Source: a virus
Taxonomy: Duplodnaviria; Heunggongvirae; Uroviricota; Caudoviricetes
Length of the DNA stretch: 64,000 nt
Strand: one strand, 5' to 3'
IMG/VR virus record: IMGVR_UViG_3300032327_001521
The first letter of the stretch is position 1; each line of letters opens with the position of its first letter. Positions 5,312 through 63,501 of this stretch are shown piece after piece. The notes beneath the pieces are model-generated. The model saw only the letters and a program-made list of their open reading frames with translations. It was not told where the DNA came from and did not search any database. A program made the position numbers and the translations under genes.

Positions 5312-6451
5312 TTAGTTGGATAATGGTGCTTTTATTGCTGGGTGTGACTTGTAATTTTCAATTGTAAAGTCTGATGGTCTAAGCTCATCCACTTTAATTG
5401 CGGTTGGAAGAATAAGTTGAGGTAATTCATATGGTTCCCTAGTGTGGTTTGGAACTCCATATAGATCACATACTCTATTAATAGATTCATCTGTGACCTG
5501 CGGCCCTACTCCAAAATCCAATGGATCAAAATGAATATCAGTAGATGCCATATTAACTCTTTCATCGCATGTTAAATCTCTACCGACCTGTTCTTTAGCT
5601 TGTTCAATATGATTTAAGTATAAATGAACATCTCCTAAATTACCAATTAGCTGATCAGGAACCATATTGACTTCTTTAGCTAAGATTTCTAATAGAAGAC
5701 CATAAGATGCAATGTTGAATGGTAAACCTAAGAATGTATCTACTGACCGCTGATTCCACATTAATGAGATTGTTCTTTTTGGGACATTTAGTTCGTCTAA
5801 TTGTTCAGTAGATATTTCCTCAAACATTGTAAGATTAACTCTTTCTTTCAAAGTCAATTCTCTTGTATAAACTTGAAATCCATAATGACAAGGTGGAAGA
5901 ACCATATCTGTAATGACTGCTGGGTCCCAGGCTGTCACTAGTAATCTTCGACTATCTGGATTGGTCTTAATCTGCTCAATGAGCTCGGCAATTTGATCAA
6001 TACCATAATATGTACCCCAACTTCTCCACTGTGCTCCGTAAATCGGACCCAGGTCTCCCCATCTAGTAGCAAACACATCATCTTCTTTTATCCGGTTGAT
6101 GAATTCTTCTTGCGATAAAAGGGCATCATTATGTGATCCAGCAAACGGTGGATTCTCTTTTAACCATTCCCTTTCATAGTTTTTATAGGCATCACCATCC
6201 CAAATATGACAATTATTATCAACTAGATATTTAATATTAGTGTCGCCTTTGAGAAACCATAACAATTCGGTTACTACCGATTTCCATGCCATTTTTTTAG
6301 TGGTAAGCAGTGGAAATCCTGACTGCATATTGTGGCGAATTGTGTACCCAAAAATAGATTTGGTACCGGTACCAGTTCGGTCACTTTTATCAACCCCGAA
6401 TTCGAGAATTGTCTTTAGTAGCTCCTGATATTGGGTGTCTAGCTTATTCAT
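5312..6451 (-). CDS. ThyA-family enzyme (thymidylate synthase or dUMP hydroxymethylase) with two insertions
   Basis: DRTGTGTKSIFG, LLWFLKGDTN, GDLGPIYGAQWRSWG, DSRRLLVTAWDP, LPPCH catalytic Cys, DTFLGLPFNIASYG (Asn retained, so uracil-specific), GDVHLYLNH; about 45-aa insertion after LLWFL block, a second after QVY, and a C-terminal extension (379 aa). Confidence 0.85.
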   Translation of the reverse strand: MNKLDTQYQELLKTILEFGVDKSDRTGTGTKSIFGYTIRHNMQSGFPLLTTKKMAWKSVVTELLWFLKGDTNIKYLVDNNCHIWDGDAYKNYEREWLKENPPFAGSHNDALLSQEEFINRIKEDDVFATRWGDLGPIYGAQWRSWGTYYGIDQIAELIEQIKTNPDSRRLLVTAWDPAVITDMVLPPCHYGFQVYTRELTLKERVNLTMFEEISTEQLDELNVPKRTISLMWNQRSVDTFLGLPFNIASYGLLLEILAKEVNMVPDQLIGNLGDVHLYLNHIEQAKEQVGRDLTCDERVNMASTDIHFDPLDFGVGPQVTDESINRVCDLYGVPNHTREPYELPQLILPTAIKVDELRPSDFTIENYKSHPAIKAPLSN

Positions 6452-7713: not shown

Positions 7714-8517
7714 TTAACACTGTAGTGACGGCACCCAATGAGTTGTACGCCCGTCAGTCGTCAGTTCGCGTGTAACCACATTGCCGTGTGGATCAGTCTT
7801 TTGAGCATACACCTCAAATTCAAATACAAATTCGCCAAGCTCTCCACCAACTCTTTGATAGTTTCGGATACTTGCACCGCCCTGTCGATAAGAGGCCTGC
7901 ATGATTTCCCGAATAAGCCTGTGCAAAACTGAAAACTCGTAAGTCTTTAGCTCGCCAACTAGCCGATGCGGCGAAATTCTTGCTCTATACAAGGCCTCAC
8001 ACTTGATATAGTTACCAACACCCGCACAGGTCCCCTGATTCATCAGGACCTCACAGATTGGCTTGTTATAGTGCTTCATCATTGCTCTTGTAAAGTCGAT
8101 CAGGCTTGCCTCTGGATTATTTAGGAGGTCTACGCCTAGACCTTTAAGCTTTTTATCCAGCTCAGCTCGATTATGTGAAAACTTAAGTGTACCGAACCGG
8201 CGCTGATCAACAAAATAGAGGGCCCGATCATTGTCTAGCCCTATTCCAAAATGCGCGTGCTTATCTGACTCAGTTGACCAGTATCCGCTCATGCCTAGTG
8301 TGATCCACATTGTTGCACCAGTTTCAAATTCAAGCCACATAAACTTGCCTTTGACACCTCCACCGACCACTCGACTCGGCAGTTTTACCTCATCAATACC
8401 AGTCGGCCGCTTTTTTAGGAAACGACCACCAAAAACTTGCAATTGTGTTACACTGGAATCTCCAATCTCTTGACGGAGATCCTCATATACTCTTCTTACT
8501 TCAGGCGATTCAGGCAT
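7714..8517 (-). CDS. Fpg/Nei-family DNA glycosylase (endonuclease VIII-like), zincless-finger type
   Basis: N-terminal MPESPEV (Fpg catalytic Pro2/Glu3), LGMSG, DQRRFG, H2TH region GVGNYIKCEALYRARISPHR; C-terminus has no CxxC-x-CxxC zinc finger. Confidence 0.8.
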   Translation of the reverse strand: MPESPEVRRVYEDLRQEIGDSSVTQLQVFGGRFLKKRPTGIDEVKLPSRVVGGGVKGKFMWLEFETGATMWITLGMSGYWSTESDKHAHFGIGLDNDRALYFVDQRRFGTLKFSHNRAELDKKLKGLGVDLLNNPEASLIDFTRAMMKHYNKPICEVLMNQGTCAGVGNYIKCEALYRARISPHRLVGELKTYEFSVLHRLIREIMQASYRQGGASIRNYQRVGGELGEFVFEFEVYAQKTDPHGNVVTRELTTDGRTTHWVPSLQC

Positions 8518-8550: not shown

Positions 8551-8796
8551 ATGAAAACTTATGTAGAAGACTTCAACGGTTTCGCAAAGGCCTATGATTC
8601 TGTAATGGAAGGCTTGGCCGCCAAGAAAAAGGTCGATCAAGACGGTGATGGCGATACTGATTTTGTTGATGCCAAGATTGCCCAGTACAAAAAGGGCGGA
8701 ATTCCAAAGGACAAGGCTATCCAAAAGGGCAAGATGTTTGCCAAGAAAAATAACATTAAGGACAACGGCTCAAAACCTTCTGGCAAGCTCAAGTAG
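8551..8796 (+). CDS. hypothetical Lys-rich small protein
   Basis: 81-aa ORF on plus strand. Confidence 0.4.
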   Translation: MKTYVEDFNGFAKAYDSVMEGLAAKKKVDQDGDGDTDFVDAKIAQYKKGGIPKDKAIQKGKMFAKKNNIKDNGSKPSGKLK

Positions 8797-8825
8797 AATA
8801 GGCTAACTTATTAATTTTAGTTTTT

Positions 8826-9023
8826 ATGTATTACTTAGCAAAAGTTAGATTTGAGTCGGAAGACGACAAGGGAAGAGTAAAAAAAGTTCGTGAGCACTAT
8901 CTAGTTGAGGCAACCTCAGTTGGAGAAGCTGAAGAGAAACTAATGGACCGATTTGGCACAGGCATTTCTCCGTGCATGCTGGAATCCGTGCAAGAATCTA
9001 AGATCTTGGGTTTGATTGAGTAA
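8826..9023 (+). CDS. conserved-looking small hypothetical protein
   Basis: 65 aa MYYLAKVRFESEDDKGRVKKVREHYLVEATSVGEAEEKL; followed by a strong terminator. Confidence 0.45.
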   Translation: MYYLAKVRFESEDDKGRVKKVREHYLVEATSVGEAEEKLMDRFGTGISPCMLESVQESKILGLIE

Positions 9024-9043
9024 TTTAAACTTAGAGAAAAAGA

Positions 9044-9068
9044 AAAAGGGAGCAATGCTCCCTTTTTT
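9044..9068. terminator. bidirectional rho-independent terminator
   Basis: aaaaa-gggagc-aat-gctccc-tttttt between convergent genes. Confidence 0.65.
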
Positions 9069-9092
9069 GTTTAGTTTAACCTAGTACAAGTA

Positions 9093-9326
9093 CTACAGGC
9101 TTTGAAAATAGCCAGGAAATCTCTCATTCAGACTTTCTCGCATCTCTAAATCAGATAAGCCAGTTGCGGCCATACCAAATAGATGTTCTATAATTCTGAC
9201 GCTGTCAGTTGACCCAATCATTGCATCGATCTTATTGCGAACTCTACTAAATTGAAGTGGACCATTTTCTGAAATCTGCTTTACCAGCTCCCCTGGTTCA
9301 GGCACGTAATACTTATTGAAACCCAT
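9093..9326 (-). CDS. hypothetical protein (start moved to internal ATG)
   Basis: track ORF 9093..9380 would begin inside a terminator hairpin; internal Met (MGFNKYY) at 9326 avoids it. Confidence 0.3.
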   Translation of the reverse strand: MGFNKYYVPEPGELVKQISENGPLQFSRVRNKIDAMIGSTDSVRIIEHLFGMAATGLSDLEMRESLNERFPGYFQSL

Positions 9327-9351
9327 ATAAACTGTATTGTACTCTCTATAA

Positions 9352-9382
9352 ACAAAAAAGGCTTGCTGATTTCTCAGCAAGC
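9352..9382 (-). terminator. rho-independent terminator, minus-strand orientation
   Basis: hairpin gcttgctga-ttt-ctcagcaagc (9361-9382) followed on the minus strand by a U-run (A-run 9353-9359 on plus). Confidence 0.6.
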
Positions 9383-9860
9383 CTTGGTATCGTGGGAAAA
9401 GCGTACGGAAGGATTAAGGTTTACCTCCATTTTGACGATGAACTGCAATAGTAGCGACCACTCTCACATCCCTCTGTCAAGGGCAACTCAAATCAGGTTG
9501 GATCCGCCTGAATCGCTGTTGTGTTAACAACTAACAATGTGGATGCTTTATTCCGCTCATCAGAAAATTATTCAGCCACAAGACGGGATTATTGTATACC
9601 CGTAGGTCGATTGCAAAATACTCCAAGTATGAAGTGTCAAAACTCCAGATTCCGACGGTTAATCGGTTCAGCCGTTCCGCTTGAAACTGCTGCGAGGCAT
9701 CCCTCTAATCTGGGCCGTTACCTGTTTTGCAAGCAGGTTATTCCGGCACGTACTTCAGTGAGGCTCATGACTTCCTCTCCAATTTTCCCAACGTTATTAA
9801 AGAACTAGTATTCTATTATAGCCAATATCCAAAAAAAGTTTTGAAATTTATGGCAATTTT
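9383..9860 (-). ncRNA. about 480-nt non-coding region with multiple hairpins; candidate structured RNA of unknown class
   Basis: no credible ORF on either strand (track ORFs 9521..9808 and 9727..9996 lie on the opposite strand to the flanking minus-strand genes and have no functional context); hairpins ccct-ctgtca-aggg and cctg-ttttgcaag-cagg; bounded by the minus-strand terminator. Confidence 0.25.
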
Positions 9861-10094
9861 TTATAGCGCCAGCGTAAGTAAATGGAGAGTCCAAAAAACA
9901 ATCCCGCTATACAGTACAAAACGAAATTCGCTCGCCATAGTGTTCCAGTTGCCTGGATTAGCCAATACTGAACTATGTCGAACCCGAATGGATTGAAGAA
10001 AAGAGCGATCATCATACATCGGGTCGCTAGATTCCCAATTAAAATTTTTCTCCAAGTTTCTACTATCACCGTCCATAAGCATTTGATTTTTCAT
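9861..10094 (-). CDS. hypothetical small protein with C-terminal hydrophobic tail
   Basis: 77-aa ATG-initiated ORF; competing 73-aa GTG ORF in another frame; weak. Confidence 0.2.
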   Translation of the reverse strand: MKNQMLMDGDSRNLEKNFNWESSDPMYDDRSFLQSIRVRHSSVLANPGNWNTMASEFRFVLYSGIVFWTLHLLTLAL

Positions 10095-10134
10095 ACAATA
10101 AGCGTAAGGAAGAGTCTATCTTCTTGACTATTTA

Positions 10135-10395
10135 TTACCATTTAGGCTCCTGACCGATTTGATCAAGTGCACAATGAAAATTCTTAAGTCTGGTCTTTGC
10201 CTCTAGAAAACACCCACAAATTCCGCATTGTATAAATGTTGAGTCAAAGTGTTCACAGGCTTTACACAATTCCATTCGAGCGGCCTTTTCAATTTCAGAT
10301 ACAAATACCTTATCTAGAATCCTAGACATTACGGTTGGATTCTTGGTTTTTGGAGTGCTATCTCCGCAGCCGCAATCTTCTGTTTCCTGATTCAT
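10135..10395 (-). CDS. Cys-rich small protein (8 Cys; zinc-ribbon/Fe-S-like), coupled to uvdE
   Basis: CGCGDS ... CKACEH ... CGICGC ... HC; its start overlaps the UvdE stop. Confidence 0.5.
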   Translation of the reverse strand: MNQETEDCGCGDSTPKTKNPTVMSRILDKVFVSEIEKAARMELCKACEHFDSTFIQCGICGCFLEAKTRLKNFHCALDQIGQEPKW

Positions 10396-11396
10396 TAAGC
10401 TTCTACTAGGTCTTTTTTAAAGTATCTCTTATCGTCAAACTCTAGATAGTTTTCAAGAAGCAACCTGGTTGACTGCTGTTCTCGATACTGAAGTACTGCC
10501 AAATCCTTGGCCTTTGCCTCAACCTCACAATCAAATGTCATACCATACTCGTTTATTCTTTCATAAACATAGTCAGCATGGGATCGAGCAATAACGGTTG
10601 GATCTTCGAACGTCTTTTTACAGCTTGAGTAGTGAGTGAGAGGTGTCACATCTTTCCAAGTACGAGCTGCAAGCTTAAGAGCGGCCTCCTCGGTTAGGCC
10701 ACCGTCATTGAATCTGTGATGGTGAAAATCAAAAGTAATTGGCGTACCAATTCGCATGTACACCATATTGTACAAATCAGTAACCGAATATTGAGCACCC
10801 TTATCATCATTTTCAATAACTATCCTGTCCCTAGCGCTTTGACTTAGCTTGGCAAAGTTTTCGCAAAAACGCTTGGCTGCCGATTCCTTGTCTCCATACG
10901 TGCCGCCTAGATGAATGTTAATTGGAAACTGGTGCGAGACCGGCAGACCCATAAGATCCATGATTTCGCTGTGCTGATTTAGATCCTTGATTGTTTTACG
11001 AACAACTGACTCGCTTGGAGAACAGAGCACATCAAACTGACCTGGGTGCATGGATAGCCTGATCCCATTGTCTAGAGCATACTCGCCAATCTTTTGCATA
11101 TCAACCAAAATCTGCTTGAAATTAGGCAGCGTTTGAATTTCATACTCTGACATCCATGGAAAAACATCGCTTGACATTCGGTACACAAAGATTCCATTCT
11201 TTACATTCCATCTCAAGATCTTAAGAATATCCTTGATGTTTTGATGGGCTAGTTCGCTACAATAGGGCTGACCCTTTGCAGCAAATGTTCGCTTAATCAT
11301 GCCGCGATTAGCTGTGATCTTTTGATCGGCTAATGATAGGTTAATGCAACAGTAACCAAATCTAACGTTTGATGTATTCATGAATCTATTGTACAT
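10395..11396 (-). CDS. uvdE: UV damage endonuclease UvdE
   Basis: blocks matching B. subtilis UvdE: HPGQFDVLCSPSESV, INIHLGGTYGDKESA, IENDDK, FDFHHH, RSHADYV, EVEAKAKDLAVL. Confidence 0.9.
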   Translation of the reverse strand: MYNRFMNTSNVRFGYCCINLSLADQKITANRGMIKRTFAAKGQPYCSELAHQNIKDILKILRWNVKNGIFVYRMSSDVFPWMSEYEIQTLPNFKQILVDMQKIGEYALDNGIRLSMHPGQFDVLCSPSESVVRKTIKDLNQHSEIMDLMGLPVSHQFPINIHLGGTYGDKESAAKRFCENFAKLSQSARDRIVIENDDKGAQYSVTDLYNMVYMRIGTPITFDFHHHRFNDGGLTEEAALKLAARTWKDVTPLTHYSSCKKTFEDPTVIARSHADYVYERINEYGMTFDCEVEAKAKDLAVLQYREQQSTRLLLENYLEFDDKRYFKKDLVEA

Positions 11397-12610: not shown

Positions 12611-13108
12611 TTAAAAGTCTGCGTTTGATATTCTGATATCGTAATTTGTAAAATGTGCAAAGTCTAGACGGTCAGCCTGCACTCGACGCTCTAGTGTATC
12701 GCCAGGCATTGCACGATTAGCCAAACGACCTACCCTGATCTCTTCAGGTATGTCAATGAAAATAATAAGACTCTCAGCCCTGTCCTCAGGCAATAGGTGT
12801 TCAAGGCCACGAGGGGTCATTATGAAAAGGGTCTTACTGTAAAACTGTTCTCGAGTTGTGCCATAAATCCAATGATTAAATCTGACCCATTCATAGAATT
12901 CGCCATTTTTAATCATTGCCTGAGCCTGGTCCTCGGACACAAATCGATAGTCCTGGTCAGGGGTCTCATTCTCTCTAGGAGGTCGAGTTGTATAGCTTAG
13001 GGCATACTCAAAACCTCTTTGCTCAAGCCTCTTTCTGAGGTGATCTTTGCCTGAGGCTCCATGACCGCATAAAATTATCCGTTTAAAACCTTTACCTAAC
13101 CTTTCCAT
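12611..13108 (-). CDS. guanylate kinase family nucleoside monophosphate kinase
   Basis: P-loop GHGASGKD, signature YTTRPPRENE, WIYGTTRE. Confidence 0.75.
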   Translation of the reverse strand: MERLGKGFKRIILCGHGASGKDHLRKRLEQRGFEYALSYTTRPPRENETPDQDYRFVSEDQAQAMIKNGEFYEWVRFNHWIYGTTREQFYSKTLFIMTPRGLEHLLPEDRAESLIIFIDIPEEIRVGRLANRAMPGDTLERRVQADRLDFAHFTNYDIRISNADF

Positions 13109-14424
13109 TAATATTCTCTAGTGCTTCCGTGCACGGCTTTGATTACTGGAAATCTCAGGGAGTGCTGGCCGTGCTGGTCAACTGTTTGCTCAAAGTATTG
13201 CACTGTAATTGTTTTACCCAATATGTCATTTGGGTTTTTATAATAATTACGACGCTGTTCAAGATTAAAACCTGATCCAACTCTTACCTGATTGCCCTTA
13301 TGCTGAATGAATACGGCTTTTAACATTTCCTCTTCAACTTCATGGCCGTCCTCTATTACGCGATGAGTTCCATTCTCAAGACCGGTAACCACATACTCGG
13401 CATCATGCATTTTCTTCACCTTAAGTAGGTTCTTTGAGCGTTTGCCTTCATATCCAACATCCTTGCGAATCATAATTCCTTCGTATCCCATTGCTGATGC
13501 ATCAGCGACCAACACTTCAAAGTGCTCGCGGCTCTCTACTCTAATTTGAGTTAGCGGCTTTGCGTGCACAAGCTCAAGGCTGTCAAAATAAGCATTAAGC
13601 ATAATAAGCCGTGCTGAGAGACTGATTTCACTGGCTCCAGCACTGAACTCGGATAGGTCTACTAAATCAAATACATAGTAGATTGGTGCCTCAACGGTAT
13701 GGTCTTTTTTACCAATTTCCTTTAGAATTCCTTGGAAATCCTCTAGTCCATCCTCCTTCATGACACAAACCTCGCCGTCTAATACCTTTGACCTTATCCC
13801 AAGCGGCTTAAGATCAGCTGCTAATTTAGATAGAGTATGGAACTCCTTACCCTGTCGAGAAAAGAACCTGATCTCTCCAGCTTCATCTGCAATTGCAAGG
13901 CAACGAACTCCATCAAGTTTACGGCTGGCCCACCAGGATTGTTCTTCAAAATCTATGCCCTTTTCACTTGATTCAAATTTTTCAGCTAGGGCAACATCAA
14001 AACCTGGAACCGTGCCAGGCAAAACTGAGTTAATTAGAGTAGCGGTTGCACGAGTTTTAATATTTCGATCAATCACATCATAGATGATCTCTGCAAACTC
14101 CTGATTTTTTTCAATAAATCCATTAACGACTTGAATTGCAGAGTGGCCAGTGATATGCCTGTCATTCAGATCATCTAATAGGGCGAACAGATCGGTATAG
14201 TTGTCAAATTTTAGGTCCTGACGTTTCTTAAGATTCTCTGAGGTTACGCCATACTGTTTAAATGGCGAATATGTGTACTCAAATATCTTGCGTAAAAATG
14301 GCGAATCATACTTTTGAATTATCTCCTTTTTTAGATTGGTCGAGGAGGTTGCTTTCATTTCATCGATGAAATCTCTAAGCTTACTAAGTTCTGCTTGCAT
14401 AGAGGTATTATACTCCATAAACAA
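13108..14424 (-). CDS. ATP-dependent DNA ligase
   Basis: motif I KLDGVR (adenylated Lys), motif V LLKVKK, nucleotidyltransferase-type spacing. Confidence 0.8.
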   Translation of the reverse strand: MFMEYNTSMQAELSKLRDFIDEMKATSSTNLKKEIIQKYDSPFLRKIFEYTYSPFKQYGVTSENLKKRQDLKFDNYTDLFALLDDLNDRHITGHSAIQVVNGFIEKNQEFAEIIYDVIDRNIKTRATATLINSVLPGTVPGFDVALAEKFESSEKGIDFEEQSWWASRKLDGVRCLAIADEAGEIRFFSRQGKEFHTLSKLAADLKPLGIRSKVLDGEVCVMKEDGLEDFQGILKEIGKKDHTVEAPIYYVFDLVDLSEFSAGASEISLSARLIMLNAYFDSLELVHAKPLTQIRVESREHFEVLVADASAMGYEGIMIRKDVGYEGKRSKNLLKVKKMHDAEYVVTGLENGTHRVIEDGHEVEEEMLKAVFIQHKGNQVRVGSGFNLEQRRNYYKNPNDILGKTITVQYFEQTVDQHGQHSLRFPVIKAVHGSTREY

Positions 14425-16188: not shown

Positions 16189-16273
16189 CTATTTGTTTTT
16201 CTGTTTTTTATAATAACTAAGTAGAGTTATTTATCCATTAAGGTCGAAACATTGGGGAATAAATAACCTTATC

Positions 16274-17395
16274 ATGAAGTACATATTTGAGTTTGCAGAA
16301 TACTCGGCTGATCAGGTTCTTGAGACTGCACTGGGAATTCTTGGAGATACCGGAACCAATTCACAATTTGGCGAGCAGACTAGCTATTTTAAGCAACTTG
16401 TACTTGAGGCTCGTAACTTGGGGATTGATGCATATGTATTTACTGATTTTGATGCAGATGGCACTACTGCCTGGATGCTAGAGGCCAACGAGACTTGGTC
16501 TAAATCTCGCAGAGGACTACCAAAGGTCTTCTATGATCGCAGCTTTCGTAAAAAGGCTGGGGCTAAGAATCGATCAAATACTCAAGCTCTTTCAGGTCTT
16601 GGCTGTACGCCAATCAATTCTCCAGATTTTAGAAAGGTTGCACTAGACAAACATCTTATGTATTCAAGCCTTGTACCGGCTCAGCTCGGGGAACTCGGTC
16701 TGCCGTATACTGAACGATATTCGAAAAAGGGGCTATTGCCATTTTTACAAGAGCGGCCAGTTTGTATTATTAAGCCGAGATTTGGATCAGGTGGAAAAGG
16801 CATAATTAAGGTAACAAAAGAGGGTATCGGATATGAATTATCCTATCAAGGAAATTCAATACAGTGTTCTGAAGCCAATTTGGTCAATACCATTAGTGAA
16901 GTTCGTAAAAAGATGCGAACTTCAAATCGACTGCACATAATTCAAGAGTGTATTAGCTTGCCAAAGTACAATGATTCGGTTTTTGATGTTCGGGTCATTT
17001 ATCAACGTGGGGCAAATGGCTCTGCCTTAAGAACTGGAATGGCAGTTAGACTAGCTGCACCCAAGAATATTGCAGCAAACCTTCATCAGGGTGGTAGTCG
17101 CGAAACCCTAAGTCGTGTACTTGGCGCACTATTCAATCAGGACTCAAACGGTCCTATTGCCGAATCAATTCGAGCTCATTCAAAATTTGTATTTGAAAAT
17201 TTAGACTCAAAGTTTGGACCAATTGGTGAAATTGGAATAGATTTTCTAATAGACCAGAGCGGTAAAGTTTACTTAATTGAGGTTAATTCAATTCCAGGTA
17301 GAAGCCTATTTCATATCATACCTGATATTAGACAAACCTCTATTAAGAGACCGGTTGAATATGCTAAATACCTACTAAACAAAAAAAGCCGCTAA
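16274..17395 (+). CDS. ATP-grasp enzyme (YheC/YheD-like ligase) with N-terminal domain of unknown function
   Basis: CIIKPRFGSGGKGIIKV and IGIDFLIDQSGKVYLIEVNSIPG are ATP-grasp C-terminal signatures; own promoter region and terminator. Confidence 0.65.
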   Translation: MKYIFEFAEYSADQVLETALGILGDTGTNSQFGEQTSYFKQLVLEARNLGIDAYVFTDFDADGTTAWMLEANETWSKSRRGLPKVFYDRSFRKKAGAKNRSNTQALSGLGCTPINSPDFRKVALDKHLMYSSLVPAQLGELGLPYTERYSKKGLLPFLQERPVCIIKPRFGSGGKGIIKVTKEGIGYELSYQGNSIQCSEANLVNTISEVRKKMRTSNRLHIIQECISLPKYNDSVFDVRVIYQRGANGSALRTGMAVRLAAPKNIAANLHQGGSRETLSRVLGALFNQDSNGPIAESIRAHSKFVFENLDSKFGPIGEIGIDFLIDQSGKVYLIEVNSIPGRSLFHIIPDIRQTSIKRPVEYAKYLLNKKSR

Positions 17396-17410
17396 TGCGG
17401 CTTTAATTTT
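17381..17410. terminator. bidirectional rho-independent terminator
   Basis: aaaaaaa-gccgc-taat-gcggc-tttaatttt between convergent genes. Confidence 0.65.
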
Positions 17411-17425: not shown

Positions 17426-17929
17426 CTATGCTTTATCAGCAGTATTTGCCTGGTCCTTTAGTCCTGCAATTTGCTCATCCAACTTTTTCATTTCCATCAT
17501 AGGTTGGTTAAGGGCCATTGCAATTCTAAAGATTCGCTGTGCACTATCAATGCCGGTTCCTTCAAATCGATTGATAATCATTGCACATGCTTCAATAGCA
17601 GAGGCTTGTACCTGGATTGGACCAGTTTCAGCAGATGATTTTTCCATCTGCTCGTATCGTGCAACAGCGGAGGCAAATCCCAAATAACAATTCATTAGCA
17701 TGAATGCTTCATTTGGACCGGTGAATGTGAATTTAGCATTACACTGATTACGAATCCACTTAAGGTCTCCAGGTTCAATACCGAGTGTCCAATAACCTGT
17801 TCGCCTATTGATAAGCATTTCAGATTCTGACATGGTACTAGTTGGCTCTTCCTGAGATTCTTCTACAGTTGAGGTTTGAACATCTTGCTCCATTAGAGCT
17901 TCTGTTTCTTGCGCGGTTTGGTCTTTCAT
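17426..17929 (-). CDS. hypothetical acidic protein
   Basis: 167-aa ORF. Confidence 0.45.
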   Translation of the reverse strand: MKDQTAQETEALMEQDVQTSTVEESQEEPTSTMSESEMLINRRTGYWTLGIEPGDLKWIRNQCNAKFTFTGPNEAFMLMNCYLGFASAVARYEQMEKSSAETGPIQVQASAIEACAMIINRFEGTGIDSAQRIFRIAMALNQPMMEMKKLDEQIAGLKDQANTADKA

Positions 17930-18001
17930 TTGACAGGTTTTATTTAATTATTATACCAATAAATTGGTTAGTAGAATTTTACTAACTACAAATTACAAGT
18001 T

Positions 18002-18490
18002 TTAGCGAAGCCTGTCTAAAATTATGCGCTGTGAATTTAATATCTTTGAATAGGCTTCAGTTAGGTCAATGAAGCCTGCCCAGTCAATTTCTTCAGTCTG
18101 TAGCTGTGAAGCTGGTATACTAAGACCAGTTAAGCCAATCTCTGATGGATTTGAGATTCGGCAAATTAGGTAGTGGATATTGTGTTTGAAAGTTTGGCCT
18201 TTCCATACCTCGGCTGTGTGAACTTCAGGTTCAACCTGAGATCGACTAAGTGAGATACCCGTCTCTTCAAACAGTTCTCTAAATGCAGCATCCTCTGGGG
18301 ATTCGCCAACCTCCACTTTGCCTTTTGGAATTCCCATTATTGGCTTTTGCCAACTATCATTTGTTGGATGAATAAGTAATACCATTGGCCCAGTTGGGGC
18401 TTCGAGAACAATTACTATGCCAGCCTTGTCAGTTGACCCCTTTGGCTCTTCTGCAAATGTACTAAATGATTTAACCATTTGAGTCAGCAT
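18002..18490 (-). CDS. NUDIX hydrolase
   Basis: Nudix box GKVEVGESPEDAAFRELFEETGI (G-x5-E-x7-REUxEExGU); start moved to internal Met to avoid overlap with S21 gene. Confidence 0.75.
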   Translation of the reverse strand: MLTQMVKSFSTFAEEPKGSTDKAGIVIVLEAPTGPMVLLIHPTNDSWQKPIMGIPKGKVEVGESPEDAAFRELFEETGISLSRSQVEPEVHTAEVWKGQTFKHNIHYLICRISNPSEIGLTGLSIPASQLQTEEIDWAGFIDLTEAYSKILNSQRIILDRLR

Positions 18491-18668
18491 TTCGATACAT
18501 TTGTCTATGCTTGGCAGCTTTAATCTCTTCACGTCTTAATATGCTAGGTTTAGTGAACTCTTTTCTTTTTCGGAGTTCCTTGTTTTGGCCGGTTTTTTCA
18601 ATCTTTCGCTTTAGGACCTTTAGAGCTCGATCAATTGAGCCGTGGTCTTTTGTATTTACAATTAACAT
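18471..18668 (-). CDS. rpsU: ribosomal protein S21 (phage-encoded, Bacteroidetes-type)
   Basis: MLIVNTKDHGSIDRALKVLKRKIEKTGQNKELRKRKEFTKPSILRREEIKAAKHRQ matches bS21 length and the KRxxEKxG...ELRxR...KPS pattern. Confidence 0.75.
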   Translation of the reverse strand: MLIVNTKDHGSIDRALKVLKRKIEKTGQNKELRKRKEFTKPSILRREEIKAAKHRQMYRNADSNG

Positions 18669-18672: not shown

Positions 18673-19401
18673 TTATAGTAGGTATGGGCACAGTTTTAAA
18701 ACCTCCTCACGGTTAATATACTCATTAAGGTAGGTATTTACAAGCCCTGTTTGAATTTTGTGTTTGTACCATATTGGTAACTTGCCAATATATGATTCAT
18801 GCACTGCAAAATAGAGATTTACCAGATCCGGCCGATCTAGCTTAAAATTCTCCATCGTTAACATGACTGGTCCTTTTGCGGTGATACCTGCTCTAAATCG
18901 AATAAGATCCTCGCCAAGAGTTTGGTGTAGATTCTCAGCAAGCTCAGCGAGTTTGGTAGTATGTGGAAATCTGCCTAGATTAAGGTGAACTGGCTTGCCA
19001 TCCACGATTTGTCTAGCTCCAATCAAATTCCCTTTATGCGATACTATTTGGACCTGCTCATTAAATTTAGGCTTACTAAAGTATAGCGAACCCTTCTGCA
19101 TAGGCGTAACATTTAAGTGCCTAAAAGTTGGAAATGTCCTAATTTTAGAGTCTGGCTCGATTGCTGTAATTGGAGTGGCCAGCTTTTGAGCTCTAAATTT
19201 ACTCTGAACTGACTCCGGTATAAAATCTGAACCGGCTAATCGGTTAAAAACTTGGTGAGTTGAATAGGCATTAGGCTTAATGCTAATCATAAGCTTACAA
19301 TCATCTCCATATAGATCAGTAAGATCATGTGATTCTCCAACAAGCCCTATTTTATGCGAAAACGTATCGTAGTTTTGAAAGTCATCAAATCGCTTTATCA
19401 T
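18673..19401 (-). CDS. hypothetical protein
   Basis: 242-aa ORF. Confidence 0.5.
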   Translation of the reverse strand: MIKRFDDFQNYDTFSHKIGLVGESHDLTDLYGDDCKLMISIKPNAYSTHQVFNRLAGSDFIPESVQSKFRAQKLATPITAIEPDSKIRTFPTFRHLNVTPMQKGSLYFSKPKFNEQVQIVSHKGNLIGARQIVDGKPVHLNLGRFPHTTKLAELAENLHQTLGEDLIRFRAGITAKGPVMLTMENFKLDRPDLVNLYFAVHESYIGKLPIWYKHKIQTGLVNTYLNEYINREEVLKLCPYLL

Positions 19402-21722
19402 CGTTTGGTTACCAATTTTCCAATCTTAAAAAAGCCTTTGCCTTCTTTAACCTGTTCTTGATTAGTTTGAAGGGCTTTTGGTACGGTTCCATTTTCCCAG
19501 TGAGCCAATGTTTCTTTCTTAACATCGTCTCTCATTGATGCATTAAGTTCGCCAGACCTTTCCAATTCGTCAAGAGTTGCATCAAGTCGAGAGATCTTAT
19601 CAGTATTTGGAGAATATGAATTATTCTTGAAATCCCAAGCATCTGCTAGATAGGCCTGTGAGTATGGGTCTAGGCTTGACATTGGGTGCTGCGGTTCAAT
19701 ATCACTGGCTTCACCAAGAGAACTTAGCACATTTTTCATTGCCGCCGTTAAGGGTGCCATTTCCTCTTCTGTTGTTATATCCTTTTTATCGCCGCCGCCC
19801 TTTGCTGAATACATGCCCTTTGGTTGGCTAAGTAGTGCTCCAGTTGCAGCGGTTGCAACAGCGGCGCTCACTGCGCATGGATTATTGGGTTTAGTTTCCG
19901 CTGCAAGTTTAGACATTGCCTCTTTTGCACTCTTAACCTGAGAACTAATCGCAGCATACGATTCCGGATCAGACTCCTTAAGCACATCTAGCTCTTCCAT
20001 TGTTATTGAATCAGAAGAGTCCTCTTCGGCTATTAAGGATAGAGTTTCTTGTATACCGGCTAAATTTAGCGCAACACTTGAGGTTTTGTCAGCCGCTGCA
20101 TCTGTTACTTTATTAAAAACATCATTTGGATCGGTGCCCTTACCTAAATAGGAAAGACACTCATTGCTCTTTATAAAGCTCTTAAGTAAAAATGCAACCA
20201 GTGCTTTTGAGCTCAGTGCAACCTTAGGCGCTACTTTTTCAAGTTTAGCAATTGAGGCCTGTACAGTTTTTAGCATTTTAGGTCCTTGTATTAAGAGTTC
20301 TGGTGCTTCTCTAAATATTGCTACTGACTTTGCAACGTTCGGACTAAGTAATTTAACGGCACCTGGGGTTTCAATAATGTCTGACAGCAATTTTTGTAAG
20401 CCTGCAGCGTTACCGGCCTTAATTTCGCTAATCAATGCTTTGTCGAGATTTACGCCTGCCTTGGCGAATTCAGTTGCTAGTTTTGGATCCTTTAGTAAGG
20501 CAATAAGGCTTTTGCCAGTTACTTGGCCCTCCTTTGCAAGCATATTACCAATCATCTTTTCATATGCAGCATACATGAGATACTTTTCTTTGATTGACTT
20601 TGATGCTCCATTTGTTAACAGTTTTTGGAATCCTTCTGACTTGATTATATCGGATTCCATTTTACTAGTAAATGCTGGAATGTCTGCAAATTTACTTGTA
20701 ATCTTGTTAATCTCTGCTTGAACTTCACCGGCTCCAATTGCCTTGGTTTCAGCATCAACTGCAGCCTTATCGGCAGCGGCTGTGAGCTTTGCCTCATCTT
20801 TGAGTAGGAGCTCACTTGCGTCAGTTGCGCTCTTACTAAAAGCAGAAGTCTTTAGCGCAAGTTCGTCAAGCCATTTTAATAAACCTGCAGGCTTTGGAAC
20901 AATTCCCAAGCTTGCTTTGTTAAGAGCATTACCAATAAAATCAGCTAGTCCACGAATGATTTTTATCCCAGTAGTTGAAAGAAACTTTCCAATTTCGCCT
21001 AGTCCAGTTGCTAATTTTTCAAAAATTCCAGTACTAGCTTTTGCCCCAGGATCAATAGCTAAGGCTCCAGCTTTAAACTCCTGAACGGCACCTTTGGCAG
21101 CGGCTCCTCCCCAAAGTGCTCCAATCAGCTTTTCGCCAAGTTTTGCAAAAGGCTTCATTGCAAACTTGATTGGTGCAAATACGACTGCGCCAACTGCAGG
21201 TATTGCCATGCCTAAGCTAATAAGACCGGTTAGGAAATTACCTCGATAGAAAGAGATTAGTGCATTTATAAAGTTTGCTACTTCATTTGCTGGAATACCT
21301 GCTGCATCAAATGGAATGATTCCAATAATATCGAGCACAAATTGTAAGATTCCAATCGCAGACCCGCCCTCAGTCATGGTACTTAAGAAACTCTTTGCCA
21401 TGTCCATTAGGCCCTCATTAATTGGTGATAGCGCTTCTAGTGTTTCGAGATAGGCTCCTTCAAGAGTAAGAAATACTGGGTTATAGCCATGTCGAATTAG
21501 AAGATTTTCACACCTATTGATCTCTTCAATTGCATCAAATGCTTCAAGTAGATACAATTGATGGTTTAGCACGGCTGCCGCTTCCTGAGAAGTTGCTGGA
21601 ATATATTGAGTAAATGAAAGAGAGCCAAGCGTCTCCCAAATTGTTTGGGGTACAATTGATTCTAATAGATTAGAACTGTTTGGTTGACCGAAAAATTCGT
21701 CAGCTGAAGAAATATACTTCAT
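19398..21722 (-). CDS. large Ala/Lys/Gly-rich protein with hydrophobic GxxxG segments (tape-measure or internal virion protein candidate)
   Basis: 774 aa; segments like LISLGMAIPAVGAVVFAPI and LIGALWGGAAAKGA; antisense ORFs 20164..20721 and 20743..21084 are GCN-codon artifacts. Confidence 0.45.
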   Translation of the reverse strand: MKYISSADEFFGQPNSSNLLESIVPQTIWETLGSLSFTQYIPATSQEAAAVLNHQLYLLEAFDAIEEINRCENLLIRHGYNPVFLTLEGAYLETLEALSPINEGLMDMAKSFLSTMTEGGSAIGILQFVLDIIGIIPFDAAGIPANEVANFINALISFYRGNFLTGLISLGMAIPAVGAVVFAPIKFAMKPFAKLGEKLIGALWGGAAAKGAVQEFKAGALAIDPGAKASTGIFEKLATGLGEIGKFLSTTGIKIIRGLADFIGNALNKASLGIVPKPAGLLKWLDELALKTSAFSKSATDASELLLKDEAKLTAAADKAAVDAETKAIGAGEVQAEINKITSKFADIPAFTSKMESDIIKSEGFQKLLTNGASKSIKEKYLMYAAYEKMIGNMLAKEGQVTGKSLIALLKDPKLATEFAKAGVNLDKALISEIKAGNAAGLQKLLSDIIETPGAVKLLSPNVAKSVAIFREAPELLIQGPKMLKTVQASIAKLEKVAPKVALSSKALVAFLLKSFIKSNECLSYLGKGTDPNDVFNKVTDAAADKTSSVALNLAGIQETLSLIAEEDSSDSITMEELDVLKESDPESYAAISSQVKSAKEAMSKLAAETKPNNPCAVSAAVATAATGALLSQPKGMYSAKGGGDKKDITTEEEMAPLTAAMKNVLSSLGEASDIEPQHPMSSLDPYSQAYLADAWDFKNNSYSPNTDKISRLDATLDELERSGELNASMRDDVKKETLAHWENGTVPKALQTNQEQVKEGKGFFKIGKLVTKR

Positions 21723-21740: not shown

Positions 21741-21755
21741 TCTATTTATTTAGAG
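21741..21755 (-). promoter_or_regulatory. late-promoter-like motif (minus-strand CTCTAAATAAATAGA)
   Basis: one of at least 8 copies of a T[AG]TTTATTTA-type motif 15-50 nt upstream of structural gene starts. Confidence 0.3.
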
Positions 21756-24803: not shown

Positions 24804-24836
24804 GTAAACAATAATTTAACAGTATTATACTACTGT

Positions 24837-26683: not shown

Positions 26684-26720
26684 TGTTATTTATTTTGCAA
26701 ATTCGGTAACTTTATTTATC
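26684..26720 (-). promoter_or_regulatory. two copies of the TTATTTAT motif upstream of gene 25127..26665
   Basis: tgttatttatttt and tttatttatc. Confidence 0.3.
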
Positions 26721-35871: not shown

Positions 35872-36498
35872 TTAAAAATATTGCGCTAGGTTATCTTGCA
35901 TGTGTGGGTTGTTTGCTAACACTCGATCCTTAAGCATTCTACGAGCCTTTCGAATCTTGGTTTTAACCGTGTTTAGGTTCATTTGATATTTCTCAGCAAT
36001 TTCATTGCCCTTCATCAAATGAACCTCCTTATCAATTAGAATAGATTTTTCTAGACATTCTGGTAACTGTCGCATCTCAAGAGTTGTCATTGAATACAGA
36101 GAGTCCATGTAGATCTCACGCTCAAAGTTAGAAAGAGAAGTATCCTCGATTATTGGAGGAGTCAGCATATTATCAAGCCGTACTGCAAAATTGGTCTTTA
36201 GCTTATGCTTATGTAGCAATGATTCATTTTTTGCAATAGTATAGATCCAGGTAGTAAATCTAAACTTATCACTATATGACGCTAGCCCTTTAAATATTTT
36301 GAATAGGGTATTGTGCAAAACCTCATCCGTTTCATCTGGATCGTTAAAAAACTTCCAAATAAAATACTTAAGTTTTGGATACATGATTGTTGAAAGCCGA
36401 TTTCTATCCCTTTCTGTATATTCTCCACTCTTTATTTTCTCAGCGAGAGATTGCATCTCATCGTTGAGTTGGCGATTGACCGCGTCATATGAACTCAT
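35872..36498 (-). CDS. phage RNA polymerase sigma factor (sigma-70 region 2/4-like)
   Basis: FTTWIYTIAKNESLLH resembles region 2.2-2.4; C-terminal HTH MKGNEIAEKYQMNLNTVKTKIRKARRML resembles region 4. Confidence 0.55.
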   Translation of the reverse strand: MSSYDAVNRQLNDEMQSLAEKIKSGEYTERDRNRLSTIMYPKLKYFIWKFFNDPDETDEVLHNTLFKIFKGLASYSDKFRFTTWIYTIAKNESLLHKHKLKTNFAVRLDNMLTPPIIEDTSLSNFEREIYMDSLYSMTTLEMRQLPECLEKSILIDKEVHLMKGNEIAEKYQMNLNTVKTKIRKARRMLKDRVLANNPHMQDNLAQYF

Positions 36499-47168: not shown

Positions 47169-47213
47169 GAAGTTTTGAGATTTAAAAATTATACTTTACT
47201 AGACTGGCTGGTT

Positions 47214-51215: not shown

Positions 51216-51230
51216 GTCTATTTATTTAGG
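51216..51230 (-). promoter_or_regulatory. late-promoter-like motif (minus CCTAAATAAATAGAC) upstream of the 943-aa fibre gene
   Basis: gtctatttatttagg; near-identical copy at 52049-52064. Confidence 0.35.
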
Positions 51231-52048: not shown

Positions 52049-52064
52049 GTCTATTTATTTAAGG
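52049..52064 (-). promoter_or_regulatory. late-promoter-like motif (minus CCTTAAATAAATAGAC) upstream of gene 51246..52031
   Basis: gtctatttatttaagg. Confidence 0.35.
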
Positions 52065-63465: not shown

Positions 63466-63501
63466 ACTAATATTATACTAGGTCAGGCTCAAAGTTTTAG
63501 T

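What the first reader, a model, noticed from the sequence alone, without database searches (positions are those of the whole stretch)
18471..18668. Phage-encoded ribosomal protein S21, alongside tmRNA, a nucleotidyltransferase and an ATP-grasp enzyme: a translation-manipulation toolkit
The 65-aa ORF has the length, basic composition and KRxxEKTG...ELRKR...KPS pattern of bacterial bS21, Bacteroidetes short form. Phage bS21 has been described in some marine phages. Here it co-occurs with three other translation-linked elements: a phage tmRNA (42295), a Pol-beta nucleotidyltransferase right after the tmRNA (43465..44247), and a YheC/RimK-like ATP-grasp ligase (16274..17395); RimK-type enzymes glutamylate ribosomal protein S6. 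Together this suggests coordinated takeover of host translation or ribosome rescue. I do not know of this combination being characterised as a unit.
Basis: partly seen in the sequence, partly recalled or inferred. Interest (0 to 1): 0.65.

Follow-up and report, generated by a model that had tools for sequence, protein, structure and literature searches.

The report
Phage-encoded ribosomal protein bS21, Bacteroidota type
A large T4-like freshwater phage carries a real copy of ribosomal protein bS21 of the Bacteroidota kind, which is already known from many phages; the tmRNA, nucleotidyltransferase and ATP-grasp genes elsewhere in the window are also real, but relatives gain and lose them independently, so they are not one toolkit.

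Summary
The 65-aa ORF (18471..18668, minus strand) is a genuine bS21. It scores 47.6 bits against Pfam PF01165 (cut-off 27) and matches TIGR00030. Its best solved relative is Flavobacterium johnsoniae bS21, and its nearest cellular relatives are Saprospiraceae and other Bacteroidota.

The window is a T4-like myovirus whose relatives reach 250-270 kb. Only 2 of 54 genes have a Shine-Dalgarno-like motif, which fits a Bacteroidota host.

The other three elements exist:
- a tmRNA (Rfam, 77.9 bits);
- a Pol-beta-fold nucleotidyltransferase (catalytic motif plus predicted fold);
- a YheC/D ATP-grasp, which is not RimK.

They are not co-conserved with bS21. In about 130 related IMG/VR loci the tmRNA is in every locus that covers its site, while bS21, the ATP-grasp and the NTase each have their own distribution, and all four bS21/ATP-grasp combinations occur.

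Phage bS21 is well described (Mizuno 2019; Chen 2022), and the idea of a translation toolkit in huge phages was set out by Al-Shayeb 2020. This is a new member of a known kind.

Side observations:
- a second, unannotated ATP-grasp-fold gene lies directly upstream of bS21;
- the tmRNA encodes a conserved 23-26-aa tag across the lineage;
- there is a manA-like RNA.

The parts
18471..18668 (-). Phage bS21 gene (65 aa), Bacteroidota type
   Evidence: Pfam PF01165 at 47.6 bits. TIGR00030 at 41.2 bits. Best PDB match is 7JIL chain z, F. johnsoniae bS21, E 1.8e-11, aligned without gaps over residues 1-59, with His54 at the Tyr54 position. Conserved at 56-98% identity in about 30 related IMG/VR loci.
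18002..18478 (-). Nudix hydrolase (158 aa from the ATG at 18478). Its start overlaps the bS21 stop by 8 nt (ATGGTTAA).
   Evidence: Pfam NUDIX E 2.1e-13. The Nudix box GX5EX7REUXEEXGU is intact when read from the sequence. The same start was called in a public assembly. It is present in relatives with and without bS21.
18673..19401 (-). Unannotated ATP-grasp-fold protein (242 aa), ending 4 nt upstream of bS21
   Evidence: No Pfam, PHROG or NCBIfam hit. AlphaFold model pLDDT 86.9. Foldseek against PDB gives 310 hits at E<=1e-3; the 50 listed are all ATP-grasp enzymes, led by LysX/ArgX, PsnB, Ddl and a RimK-domain protein. It co-occurs with the YheC/D ATP-grasp in 9 of 9 positive relatives and is absent wherever that gene is absent.
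19398..21722 (-). 774-aa hypothetical protein, first gene of the tightly packed block 19398-21722 / 18673-19401 / bS21 / Nudix
   Evidence: 4-nt ATGA overlap with the next gene. No family hit. Conserved at 25-93% identity in relatives.
21743..21750 (-). AATAAATA motif (resembles the T4 late promoter TATAAATA), 21 nt upstream of the first gene of the bS21 block
   Evidence: 9 of 11 copies in the window lie in the 11% non-coding fraction. Four of them lie 21-24 nt upstream of a start codon. Promoter function is inferred, not shown.
16274..17395 (+). YheC/D-family ATP-grasp ligase (373 aa). It is an accessory gene on the opposite strand and not part of a bS21 unit.
   Evidence: PF14398 at 185.5 bits. 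RimK family TIGR00768 only 30.8 bits against a cut-off of 143.4. No PDB sequence relative. Present in relatives both with and without bS21.
17385..17404 (.). Bidirectional terminator-like hairpin between the converging ATP-grasp gene and the gene at 17426..17929
42295..42664 (+). Phage tmRNA, a core gene of this lineage and independent of bS21
   Evidence: Rfam RF00023 at 77.9 bits. Matches in all 62 gp15-anchored relatives, full-length in most. The acceptor and T stems pair 12/12 in 28 of 30 distinct sequences, with compensatory changes, and G3.U is invariant. ARAGORN finds it in 15 of 18 relatives. The window copy has a 6-nt T loop.
42385..42462 (+). tmRNA tag reading frame: GNTTSFWSLVNATVSTPAGTELVEA, then stop
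   Evidence: The frame is fixed by synonymous changes across relatives and by ARAGORN tags in relatives, GNTxFWSLVN...EELLAA.
42251..42279 (+). Promoter-like site (GTGACC-17-TATAAT) upstream of the tmRNA
   Evidence: This is a consensus match only.
42669..42695 (+). Terminator-like hairpin (12 pairs) plus a T run just after the tmRNA
42716..43465 (+). Tail gene weakly similar to the T4 gp15 tail sheath stabiliser; it lies between the tmRNA and the NTase
   Evidence: PF16724 E 3.8e-5, 23.4 bits, just below the cut-off of 25. 66-99% identical in 62 relatives.
43465..44247 (+). Pol-beta-fold nucleotidyltransferase (260 aa) of unknown substrate; a variable accessory gene
   Evidence: Invariant G54-S55...S62-G63-D64-x-D66...Q111-x-D113. 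AlphaFold pLDDT 88.5. Foldseek gives Pol beta, Pol lambda, PolX and Cid1 at E 4e-5 to 3e-3, TM about 0.4 for the PolX-family matches (about 0.3 for Cid1). Present in only 11 of 62 tmRNA-bearing relatives.

Best explanation
**What it is.** The ORF encodes a functional phage copy of small-subunit ribosomal protein bS21, acquired from or convergent with Bacteroidota bS21. It is carried by a T4-like myovirus of a freshwater lineage in which the longest related contigs are 250-270 kb.

**Where it sits.** It is the third gene of a tightly packed four-gene block: a 774-aa hypothetical protein, an ATP-grasp-fold protein, bS21 and a Nudix hydrolase. The block is preceded by a motif that resembles a T4 late promoter.

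**Likely mechanism (inferred, not shown).**
- bS21 is made during infection without the strong Shine-Dalgarno leader that autoregulates host rpsU.
- It binds the 30S platform, where bS21 is a late-assembling protein that can dissociate from mature ribosomes.
- It keeps or sets host ribosomes in the state with the anti-Shine-Dalgarno tail sequestered. That state initiates best on SD-less, A-rich leaders, which is the kind of leader nearly all genes in this window have.

**The other three elements.** The tmRNA, the Pol-beta-fold nucleotidyltransferase and the YheC/D ATP-grasp are real but separate.
- The tmRNA is a core gene of the whole lineage.
- The other two are accessory genes, each with its own distribution.
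- They do not form a module with bS21.
For: **Identity**
- Family scores.
- Ungapped alignment over residues 1-59 to F. johnsoniae bS21 (PDB 7JIL), with an aromatic-ring residue (His54) at the Tyr54 position that stacks on the 16S tail (PMC9723584).
- 79 of the best 80 of 499 matches in GTDB species genomes carry Bacteroidota titles, led by Saprospiraceae at 61-63% identity.

**Selection**
- About 30 related phage loci keep the gene at 56-98% identity with invariant core residues.

**Phage context**
- T4-type large terminase, baseplate wedge, gp15-like tail gene and collagen-repeat fibre proteins.
- The closest GenBank phages are only 33-37% identical in the large terminase.

**SD-less leaders**
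- 2 of 54 genes have an AGGA/GGAG/GAGG motif at -22..-4, against 10% background. The leaders are A-rich and G-poor.
- No SD precedes the phage bS21 itself.
- Host rpsU across Bacteroidota has an exceptionally strong SD, and ribosomes lacking bS21 initiate worse on SD-less mRNAs (PMC9976891).

**Timing**
- The AATAAATA motif lies 21 nt upstream of the block.
- A sigma-70 region-2 protein is encoded at 35872..36498.
- bS21 of other Bacteroidota phages is transcribed with late genes (PMC9723584).

**Independence of the other elements**
- Presence and absence across relatives.
Against: - No experiment shows incorporation into ribosomes or any effect on translation for this protein.
- The host is inferred, not demonstrated.
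- The promoter-like motifs are TATAAT-type and T4-late-type. The Bacteroidota TAnnTTTG motif is not enriched in non-coding DNA (7 of 75 copies).
- Three subgroups of close relatives lack bS21 in the same slot, so it is dispensable for the lineage.
- Position 54 is His rather than Tyr.
- Late expression rests on a short motif and on analogy with other phages.
Confidence: 0.7

Rival explanations
1. One reading: bS21, the tmRNA, the nucleotidyltransferase and the ATP-grasp ligase act together as one coordinated toolkit for translation takeover or ribosome rescue. In this model the ATP-grasp modifies a ribosomal protein as RimK does, and the NTase services the tmRNA.
For: - All four elements are present in the window and in the closest 252-253 kb relatives.
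- bS21 is flanked by two ATP-grasp-fold genes.
- Many relatives' tmRNA genes do not encode the 3' CCA, so some nucleotidyltransferase activity is needed.
- Large phages are known to accumulate translation genes (PMC7162821).
Against: - The four distributions differ. The tmRNA is in all relatives. bS21 is in subgroups A and B only. The ATP-grasp is in A, D and E. The NTase is in A and D.
- All four bS21/ATP-grasp combinations exist.
- NTase presence does not track whether CCA is encoded.
- The ATP-grasp is far below the RimK cut-off.
- The NTase's best fold matches are PolX and Cid1, and CCA-adding enzymes reach only E 0.05-0.07.
- The tmRNA and NTase are 24 kb away, among tail genes.
- No ATP-grasp homologue was found near bS21 in 16 unrelated bS21 phage loci.
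Confidence: 0.07
2. The phage bS21 acts as a selective or dominant-negative variant rather than a simple supplement. It displaces host bS21 and changes which mRNAs the ribosome accepts or shuts down host translation, or it has a role off the ribosome as an RNA-binding protein.
For: - Phage and bacterial bS21 form separate clusters and differ at N-terminal and C-terminal positions (PMC9723584).
- The window protein is only 50-63% identical to any cellular bS21.
- It has His54 and a distinct C-terminal tail ending ...NADSNG.
- McNutt et al. speculate that phages promote bS21 exchange (PMC9976891).
Against: - Core ribosome-contact residues are conserved.
- The window has no recognisable protease or factor for removing host bS21, although many of its ORFs have no family match.
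- Nothing in the sequence separates replacement from supplementation.
Confidence: 0.2
3. The bS21 gene is a recently captured passenger with no role in infection.
For: It is missing from the same slot in three subgroups of close relatives, so it is dispensable.
Against: - It is kept intact in about 30 related loci that have diverged to 56% identity, with invariant core residues.
- In one subgroup it has its own promoter-like TAGTATAAT element just upstream.
- In the window it overlaps the next gene in a coupling-type arrangement.
- bS21 recurs in hundreds of unrelated phages (320 IMG/VR matches; PMC9723584).
Confidence: 0.03

Closest known systems
bS21-encoding freshwater myoviruses of Bacteroidetes (Chen et al. 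2022, ISME Commun, PMC9723584)
   Same: - Phage-encoded bS21 most similar to Bacteroidota bS21, with an aromatic-ring residue at position 54.
- Large myovirus genomes from freshwater.
- Proposed substitution into host ribosomes late in infection.
- Similar accessory content elsewhere in the genome, such as Hsp20, thymidylate synthase and glycosyltransferases.
   Different: - Those phages are 293-331 kb with 31-34% GC. The window is about 40% GC, and the longest contigs of its relatives are 250-270 kb.
- Their bS21 lies on the reverse strand among the large terminase, portal, protease and capsid genes.
- Here bS21 is co-oriented with its neighbours, between an ATP-grasp-fold gene and a Nudix gene. 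It sits next to a DNA-repair and nucleotide-metabolism cluster, 19 kb from the large terminase.
- That paper mentions no tmRNA, Nudix or ATP-grasp.
Viral ribosomal proteins survey (Mizuno et al. 2019, PMC6375957), including Pelagibacter phage HTVC008M bS21
   Same: bS21 is the commonest phage-borne ribosomal protein. HTVC008M bS21 is incorporated into E. coli ribosomes (as cited in PMC9976891).
   Different: The host group and bS21 type differ, and the window protein has no experimental data.
Translation gene sets of huge phages (Al-Shayeb et al. 2020, Nature, PMC7162821)
   Same: S21, tmRNA, SmpB and CCA-adding nucleotidyltransferase are described together as means of redirecting host translation. 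The closest GenBank matches to this window's large terminase and bS21 are huge-phage genomes deposited as uncultured phage (LR7565xx).
   Different: - Only 33-37% identity in the large terminase.
- No SmpB or tRNA was found in this window.
- The bS21 here has no N-terminal extension.
- The NTase is not of the CCA-adding type.
RimK / LysX-ArgX alpha-L-glutamate and carrier-protein ligases (ATP-grasp)
   Same: Both ATP-grasp genes beside bS21 share the ATP-grasp fold. The 242-aa protein's best structural matches are LysX/ArgX, which modify a protein C-terminus.
   Different: Neither gene reaches any family cut-off for RimK. The 373-aa protein belongs to the uncharacterised YheC/D family. Both genes occur in relatives that lack bS21.

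Membership tests
Ribosomal protein bS21 (Pfam PF01165 / TIGR00030) | Profile score above the curated cut-off over nearly the full profile | tested here: met
   PF01165 at 47.6 bits against 27, profile positions 2-54 of 55. TIGR00030 at 41.2 bits against 28.95.
Ribosomal protein bS21 (Pfam PF01165 / TIGR00030) | Small, strongly basic protein of about 55-71 aa | tested here: met
   65 aa with 19 Lys+Arg and 8 Asp+Glu, counted from the translation.
Bacteroidota-type bS21 | Closest to Bacteroidota sequences, with an aromatic-ring residue at F. johnsoniae position 54 | tested here: met
   The best PDB match is 7JIL chain z, aligned without gaps, with His54 opposite Tyr54. 79 of the best 80 genome matches carry Bacteroidota titles. 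His at this position is reported in a few phage bS21 (PMC9723584).
Bacteroidota-type bS21 | Incorporation into the 30S platform and sequestration of the 16S 3' tail | not testable with these tools
   Needs ribosome purification or cryo-EM from infected or expressing cells.
tmRNA (Rfam RF00023) | Covariance-model score above the gathering score, full length | tested here: met
   77.9 bits against 47, model positions 1-374.
tmRNA (Rfam RF00023) | tRNA-like domain: 7-bp acceptor stem with G3.U, a T arm, and an ACCA end | tested here: met
   12 of 12 stem pairs form, G3.U is invariant in 30 of 30 relatives, and compensatory changes occur. One departure: the window's T loop has 6 nt (TTCGAT), against 7 nt in 28 of 30 sequences, which probably explains why ARAGORN misses it.
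tmRNA (Rfam RF00023) | Internal tag reading frame ending in a hydrophobic, Ala-rich degradation signal | tested here: inconclusive
   The frame is conserved, and relatives end in ...ELLAA...ELVAA or ...ALVA. The window copy ends in ...ELVEA, with Glu in the second-to-last position. The effect on proteolysis is unknown.
RimK family alpha-L-glutamate ligase | Score above the family cut-off (TIGR00768, or a Pfam RimK-family model) | tested here: not met
   TIGR00768 at 30.8 bits against 143.4. No RimK-family model is among the Pfam hits at E<=0.01. No PDB sequence hit at E<=0.01. The protein is instead PF14398 YheC/D at 185.5 bits.
Pol-beta-superfamily nucleotidyltransferase | hG[GS]-x(9-13)-Dh[DE]h motif plus a third carboxylate, on the minimal NTase fold | tested here: met
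   G54-S55...D64-x-D66 and D113 are invariant in 19 homologues. The model has pLDDT 88.5. Foldseek probability is 1.00 to Pol beta, Pol lambda, PolX and Cid1, with TM about 0.4 for the PolX-family matches (about 0.3 for Cid1). No Pfam model is matched.
CCA-adding enzyme (tRNA nucleotidyltransferase) | Specific similarity to class I or class II CCA-adding enzymes | tested here: not met
   1vfg at E 0.053 and 1ou5 at E 0.074, ranked 32-38, well behind PolX and Cid1. No NCBIfam hit.
Co-conserved functional module (bS21 + tmRNA + NTase + ATP-grasp) | The genes are gained and lost together in related genomes | tested here: not met
   Five presence/absence patterns among relatives:
- A: all four present.
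- B: bS21 and tmRNA only.
- C: tmRNA only.
- D: tmRNA, ATP-grasp and NTase.
- E: tmRNA and ATP-grasp.

The most novel reading that the evidence does not exclude
The two ATP-grasp-fold ligases that bracket bS21 may form a protein-modifying pair. One is the unannotated 242-aa LysX/RimK-like fold directly upstream; the other is the YheC/D enzyme downstream. Relatives always carry both or neither. The pair could add amino acids to a component of the 30S platform (bS6, bS18 or bS21) or to tmRNA-tagged proteins. Together with phage bS21 and the lineage's tmRNA, with its unusually long and conserved tag, this would be a staged remodelling of Bacteroidota ribosomes that has not been described for any phage.
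Probability: 0.05. Interest if true: 0.75.

Novelty: new member of a known kind. Interest (0 to 1): 0.3.

Why it matters
Phage bS21 is the commonest virus-borne ribosomal protein, but how it works is untested in Bacteroidota, where bS21 controls whether the ribosome can see Shine-Dalgarno sequences.

This window adds a second large freshwater phage lineage, different in gene context from the published one. It carries a Bacteroidota-type bS21 and has almost entirely SD-less genes. Close relatives with and without the gene provide natural comparisons.

The analysis also shows that co-location of translation-related genes in one big phage genome is not evidence of a module. The gain is incremental rather than conceptual.

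Tried and rejected
- **ARAGORN on the window** found no tmRNA or tRNA. This is a false negative, explained by the 6-nt T loop.
- **The 84-aa bS21 with a basic, aromatic N-terminal extension**, as called in ENA scaffold KRAE22-1_SAMEA4981851_METAG-scaffold_9. I rejected it. The window has an in-frame TAA in that extension, closer relatives place the upstream gene's stop there, and subgroup B lacks it.
- **GAGGAGG about 30-36 nt upstream of bS21 as a Shine-Dalgarno.** Rejected because it is too far from the start, lies in the codons for the invariant NREE of the upstream gene, and is not conserved at the DNA level.
- **The alternative tmRNA tag frame starting at GCA.** Rejected because relatives hit an early stop in that frame, and synonymous changes support the GGC frame.
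- **The Bacteroidota -7 promoter motif TAnnTTTG** is not enriched in non-coding DNA, so it gives no host support.
- **PADLOC** gave nothing relevant for the NTase, either ATP-grasp or their neighbours.
- **PDB sequence search of the YheC/D protein** gave no hit.
- **Literature on YheC/YheD** gave only spore-coat and general ATP-grasp references.
- **bS21 elsewhere in the bS21-negative 270-kb relatives.** A profile-pattern scan of IMG/VR did not place those contigs among the best 80 of 320 matches, which reach down to about 44% identity. A more distant copy cannot be excluded, because whole contigs could not be read.
Full report
**1. Observation**

The window holds a 65-aa ATG-to-stop ORF at 18471..18668 on the minus strand.
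- It matches Pfam Ribosomal_S21 over almost the whole profile: E 1.4e-12, 47.6 bits, cut-off 27.
- It also matches NCBIfam TIGR00030 at 41.2 bits against 28.95 and PHROG 21469.
- Its best solved relative is bS21 of Flavobacterium johnsoniae (7JIL chain z, E 1.8e-11). The alignment has no gaps over residues 1-59 and places His54 opposite Tyr54. Tyr54 is the residue that stacks on the 16S 3' tail in the Bacteroidota ribosome (PMC9723584).
- A pattern scan of one genome per GTDB species gave 499 confirmed matches. Of the best 80, 79 carry Bacteroidota titles, led by Saprospiraceae at 61-63% identity. The search patterns came from a Bacteroidota-like alignment, so this result is partly circular. 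The PDB search is not.

**2. What the window is**

It is a phage.
- It has a T4-type large terminase (37504..39450), a baseplate wedge protein (40432..42195), a weak gp15-like tail protein, collagen-repeat fibre proteins including a 2020-aa ORF, and a DUF285-repeat protein.
- The left part carries DNA-repair and nucleotide genes: thymidylate synthase, Fpg, UvdE, guanylate kinase, DNA ligase and an exonuclease. It also has Hsp20 and an SPFH protein.
- GC content is about 40%.
- The nearest GenBank phages are only 33-37% identical in the large terminase. They are huge uncultured phages, Sphingomonas phage PAU and the Lak phages.
- IMG/VR holds many relatives, on contigs up to 252-271 kb.
- A near-identical 169-kb scaffold exists in an ENA metagenome assembly.
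- Only 2 of 54 genes have an SD-like tetramer at -22..-4, against 10% background, and the leaders are A-rich and G-poor. This is the initiation style of Bacteroidota.

**3. Local anatomy**

bS21 is the third gene of a tight block on the minus strand:
- 19398..21722 encodes a 774-aa protein with no family match.
- 18673..19401 overlaps it by 4 nt.
- bS21 follows after a 4-nt gap.
- A Nudix hydrolase follows, and its ATG (18478) overlaps the bS21 stop by 8 nt.

An AATAAATA motif lies 21 nt upstream of the first gene. Nine of its 11 copies in the window fall in the 11% of sequence that is non-coding, and four of them lie 21-24 nt before a start codon. It resembles the T4 late promoter, and a sigma-70 region-2 protein is encoded at 35872..36498. 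Late expression is therefore an inference. It agrees with the transcript data of Chen et al. for other bS21 phages.

The 242-aa protein directly upstream of bS21 has no sequence-family hit. Its AlphaFold model (pLDDT 86.9) is clearly an ATP-grasp fold. Foldseek gives 310 PDB hits at E<=1e-3, led by LysX/ArgX, PsnB, Ddl and a RimK-domain protein.

**4. The other three elements**

*tmRNA (42295..42664)*
- It is real: 77.9 bits, full length.
- It has a promoter-like site and a strong terminator-like hairpin of its own.
- It matches in all 62 related loci anchored on the gp15-like gene, full-length in most, and always lies between the baseplate wedge gene and that gene.
- Among 30 distinct sequences, the acceptor and T stems pair 12/12 in 28, with compensatory changes. 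G3.U, the alanine identity pair, is invariant.
- ARAGORN finds the gene in 15 of 18 relatives, with tags of 23-26 aa in 14 of the 15: GNTxFWSLVN...EELLAA.
- The window copy and its 99% twin L044 differ in two ways. The T loop has 6 nt, and the tag ends ...ELVEA rather than ...ELVAA. The short loop probably explains why ARAGORN misses it.

*The ORF at 43465..44247*
- It has no family hit.
- It has an invariant GS...SGDxD...QxD signature.
- A confident model (pLDDT 88.5) has Pol beta, Pol lambda, PolX and Cid1 as its best structural matches. CCA-adding enzymes are far weaker.
- 'Pol-beta-fold nucleotidyltransferase' is therefore supported, but a role in translation is not.

*The ORF at 16274..17395*
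- It is a YheC/D ATP-grasp at 185.5 bits.
- It is a very distant relative of RimK, not a member: 30.8 bits against 143.4.

**5. Test of the 'toolkit'**

I anchored scans of IMG/VR on bS21, the gp15-like gene and the DNA ligase, then searched the loci with the window's proteins and tmRNA. The relatives fall into five patterns.

| Subgroup | Example contigs | bS21 | 242-aa ATP-grasp fold | YheC/D ATP-grasp | NTase | tmRNA |
|---|---|---|---|---|---|---|
| A | window; 252-253 kb contigs 3300043446_005562, 3300027759_000046 | + | + | + | + | + |
| B | 3300027749_000049, 3300009164_000061, 3300034060_001790 | + | - | - | - | + |
| C | 270-271 kb contigs such as 3300042430_002694 | - | - | - | - | + |
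| D | 3300027736_000027, 3300043409_003130 | - | + | + | + | + |
| E | 3300014204_000161, 3300033889_000445 | - | + | + | - | + |

- Subgroup E also lacks the Nudix gene.
- In subgroup C the Nudix gene starts 8 nt after the preceding gene, so the bS21 slot is simply empty.
- A broader profile scan found 320 bS21-encoding stretches in IMG/VR. None of the C, D or E contigs is among the best 80.
- None of 16 unrelated bS21 phage loci has a homologue of the ATP-grasp nearby.

The only perfect co-occurrence is between the two ATP-grasp-fold genes. They are not adjacent to each other, and both are independent of bS21.

**6. Mechanism**

What is shown:
- the identity of the gene;
- its conservation;
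- its Bacteroidota affinity;
- the SD-less leaders of the phage genes.

What follows from published work:
- In F. johnsoniae, bS21, bS18 and bS6 sequester the anti-SD tail.
- bS21 joins the 30S subunit last and can dissociate from it.
- Ribosomes lacking bS21 translate rpsU better, because of its very strong SD, and translate SD-less mRNAs worse (PMC9976891).

The phage gene has no SD, so it would escape that feedback.

My inference is that the phage supplies bS21 to keep ribosomes replete, or replaces the host protein with its own version. Either would favour its SD-less late mRNAs. Sequence alone cannot separate supplementation from selective replacement.

In subgroup B a TAGTATAAT element ends 7-9 nt before the bS21 ATG, which suggests a leaderless or nearly leaderless transcript. 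The same element type precedes the tmRNA in the window.

**7. Comparison with what is known**

- Phage bS21 is well documented (PMC6375957). Chen et al. refer to 900 published bS21 phages.
- That paper describes Bacteroidetes-infecting freshwater myoviruses with bS21. They differ from this lineage in GC content (31-34%), size (293-331 kb) and gene context, with bS21 on the reverse strand among head genes. It does not mention tmRNA, Nudix or ATP-grasp.
- Al-Shayeb et al. already list S21, tmRNA, SmpB and CCA-adding enzymes as translation-redirecting genes of huge phages, and note that no phage has them all.

**8. Verdict**

This is a genuine phage bS21 and a new member of a known kind, in a lineage and context that differ from the published one. 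The 'toolkit as a unit' reading is not supported. Interest is modest at 0.3.

The most interesting leftovers are the paired ATP-grasp-fold genes around bS21, the lineage-wide tmRNA with a long conserved tag, and a manA-like RNA.

Noticed in passing
window 9573..9772 (-): Full-length match to the Rfam manA RNA motif RF01745: 49.4 bits, just under the gathering score of 55.2, E about 1e-11. It lies in a 1.6-kb stretch (about 8520-10130) with no ORF over 95 aa, between the Fpg glycosylase and UvdE genes. As far as I recall, manA RNAs are known from marine bacteria and cyanophages; I did not check this.
   Followed up: partly
window 18673..19401 (-): A 242-aa protein with no sequence-family hit is predicted with confidence to be an ATP-grasp fold, with LysX/ArgX, PsnB and RimK-domain proteins as best matches. 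It lies 4 nt upstream of bS21. It co-occurs perfectly with the non-adjacent YheC/D ATP-grasp gene (16274..17395) across relatives, in 9 of 9 positive loci, and is absent from all loci that lack that gene. The usual ATP-binding Lys in the KP motif is not invariant, so it may be a non-catalytic partner.
   Followed up: partly
window 42385..42462 (+), and L045-L099: The lineage's tmRNA encodes an unusually long tag of 23-26 aa in most relatives, with a conserved N-terminal GNTxFWSLVN motif and an ...ELLAA or ...ALVA end. The window copy ends ...ELVEA and has a 6-nt T loop. Only about a third of relatives encode the 3' CCA.
   Followed up: yes
window, 11 sites, e.g. 21743..21750, 26687..26694, 51219..51226, 52052..52059 (-), 16258..16265 (+): AATAAATA resembles the T4 late promoter. 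It is strongly concentrated in non-coding DNA (9 of 11 copies), and four copies lie 21-24 nt upstream of start codons. One copy lies 9 nt before the YheC/D ATP-grasp start.
   Followed up: partly
window 17950..17956, 24824..24830, 47188..47194, 63472..63478 (-), 42273..42279 (+); L004, L012, L018, L019 just upstream of bS21: A second promoter-like element, (TA)GTATAAT, has 6 of its 12 copies in non-coding DNA. Three of them lie 20-21 nt before start codons. It precedes the tmRNA in the window. In subgroup-B relatives it ends 7-9 nt before the bS21 ATG, which suggests a leaderless bS21 mRNA.
   Followed up: partly
window 35872..36498 (-): A 208-aa protein with a sigma-70 region 2 domain (E 1.1e-8), next to the terminase region. 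It is a candidate phage sigma factor for one of the promoter classes above.
   Followed up: no
window 55187..61249 (-) and 52059..54416 (-): A 2020-aa ORF with six collagen triple-helix repeat stretches and a weak CBM_5_12 match, and a 785-aa protein made of seven DUF285 repeats (E 1e-238). Both are probably tail fibre or host-recognition proteins.
   Followed up: no
window 7714..8517, 10395..11396, 13108..14424, 5312..6451, 12611..13108 (-): A dense DNA-repair and nucleotide set next to the bS21 block: Fpg glycosylase, UvdE UV endonuclease, ATP-dependent DNA ligase, thymidylate synthase and guanylate kinase. This fits a phage of sunlit surface water.
   Followed up: no
L206 (JASGCW010000017.1, MAG labelled Limnohabitans sp.): The one non-Bacteroidota title among the best 80 cellular bS21 matches (51% identity). 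It may be a mis-binned Bacteroidota or phage contig.
   Followed up: no
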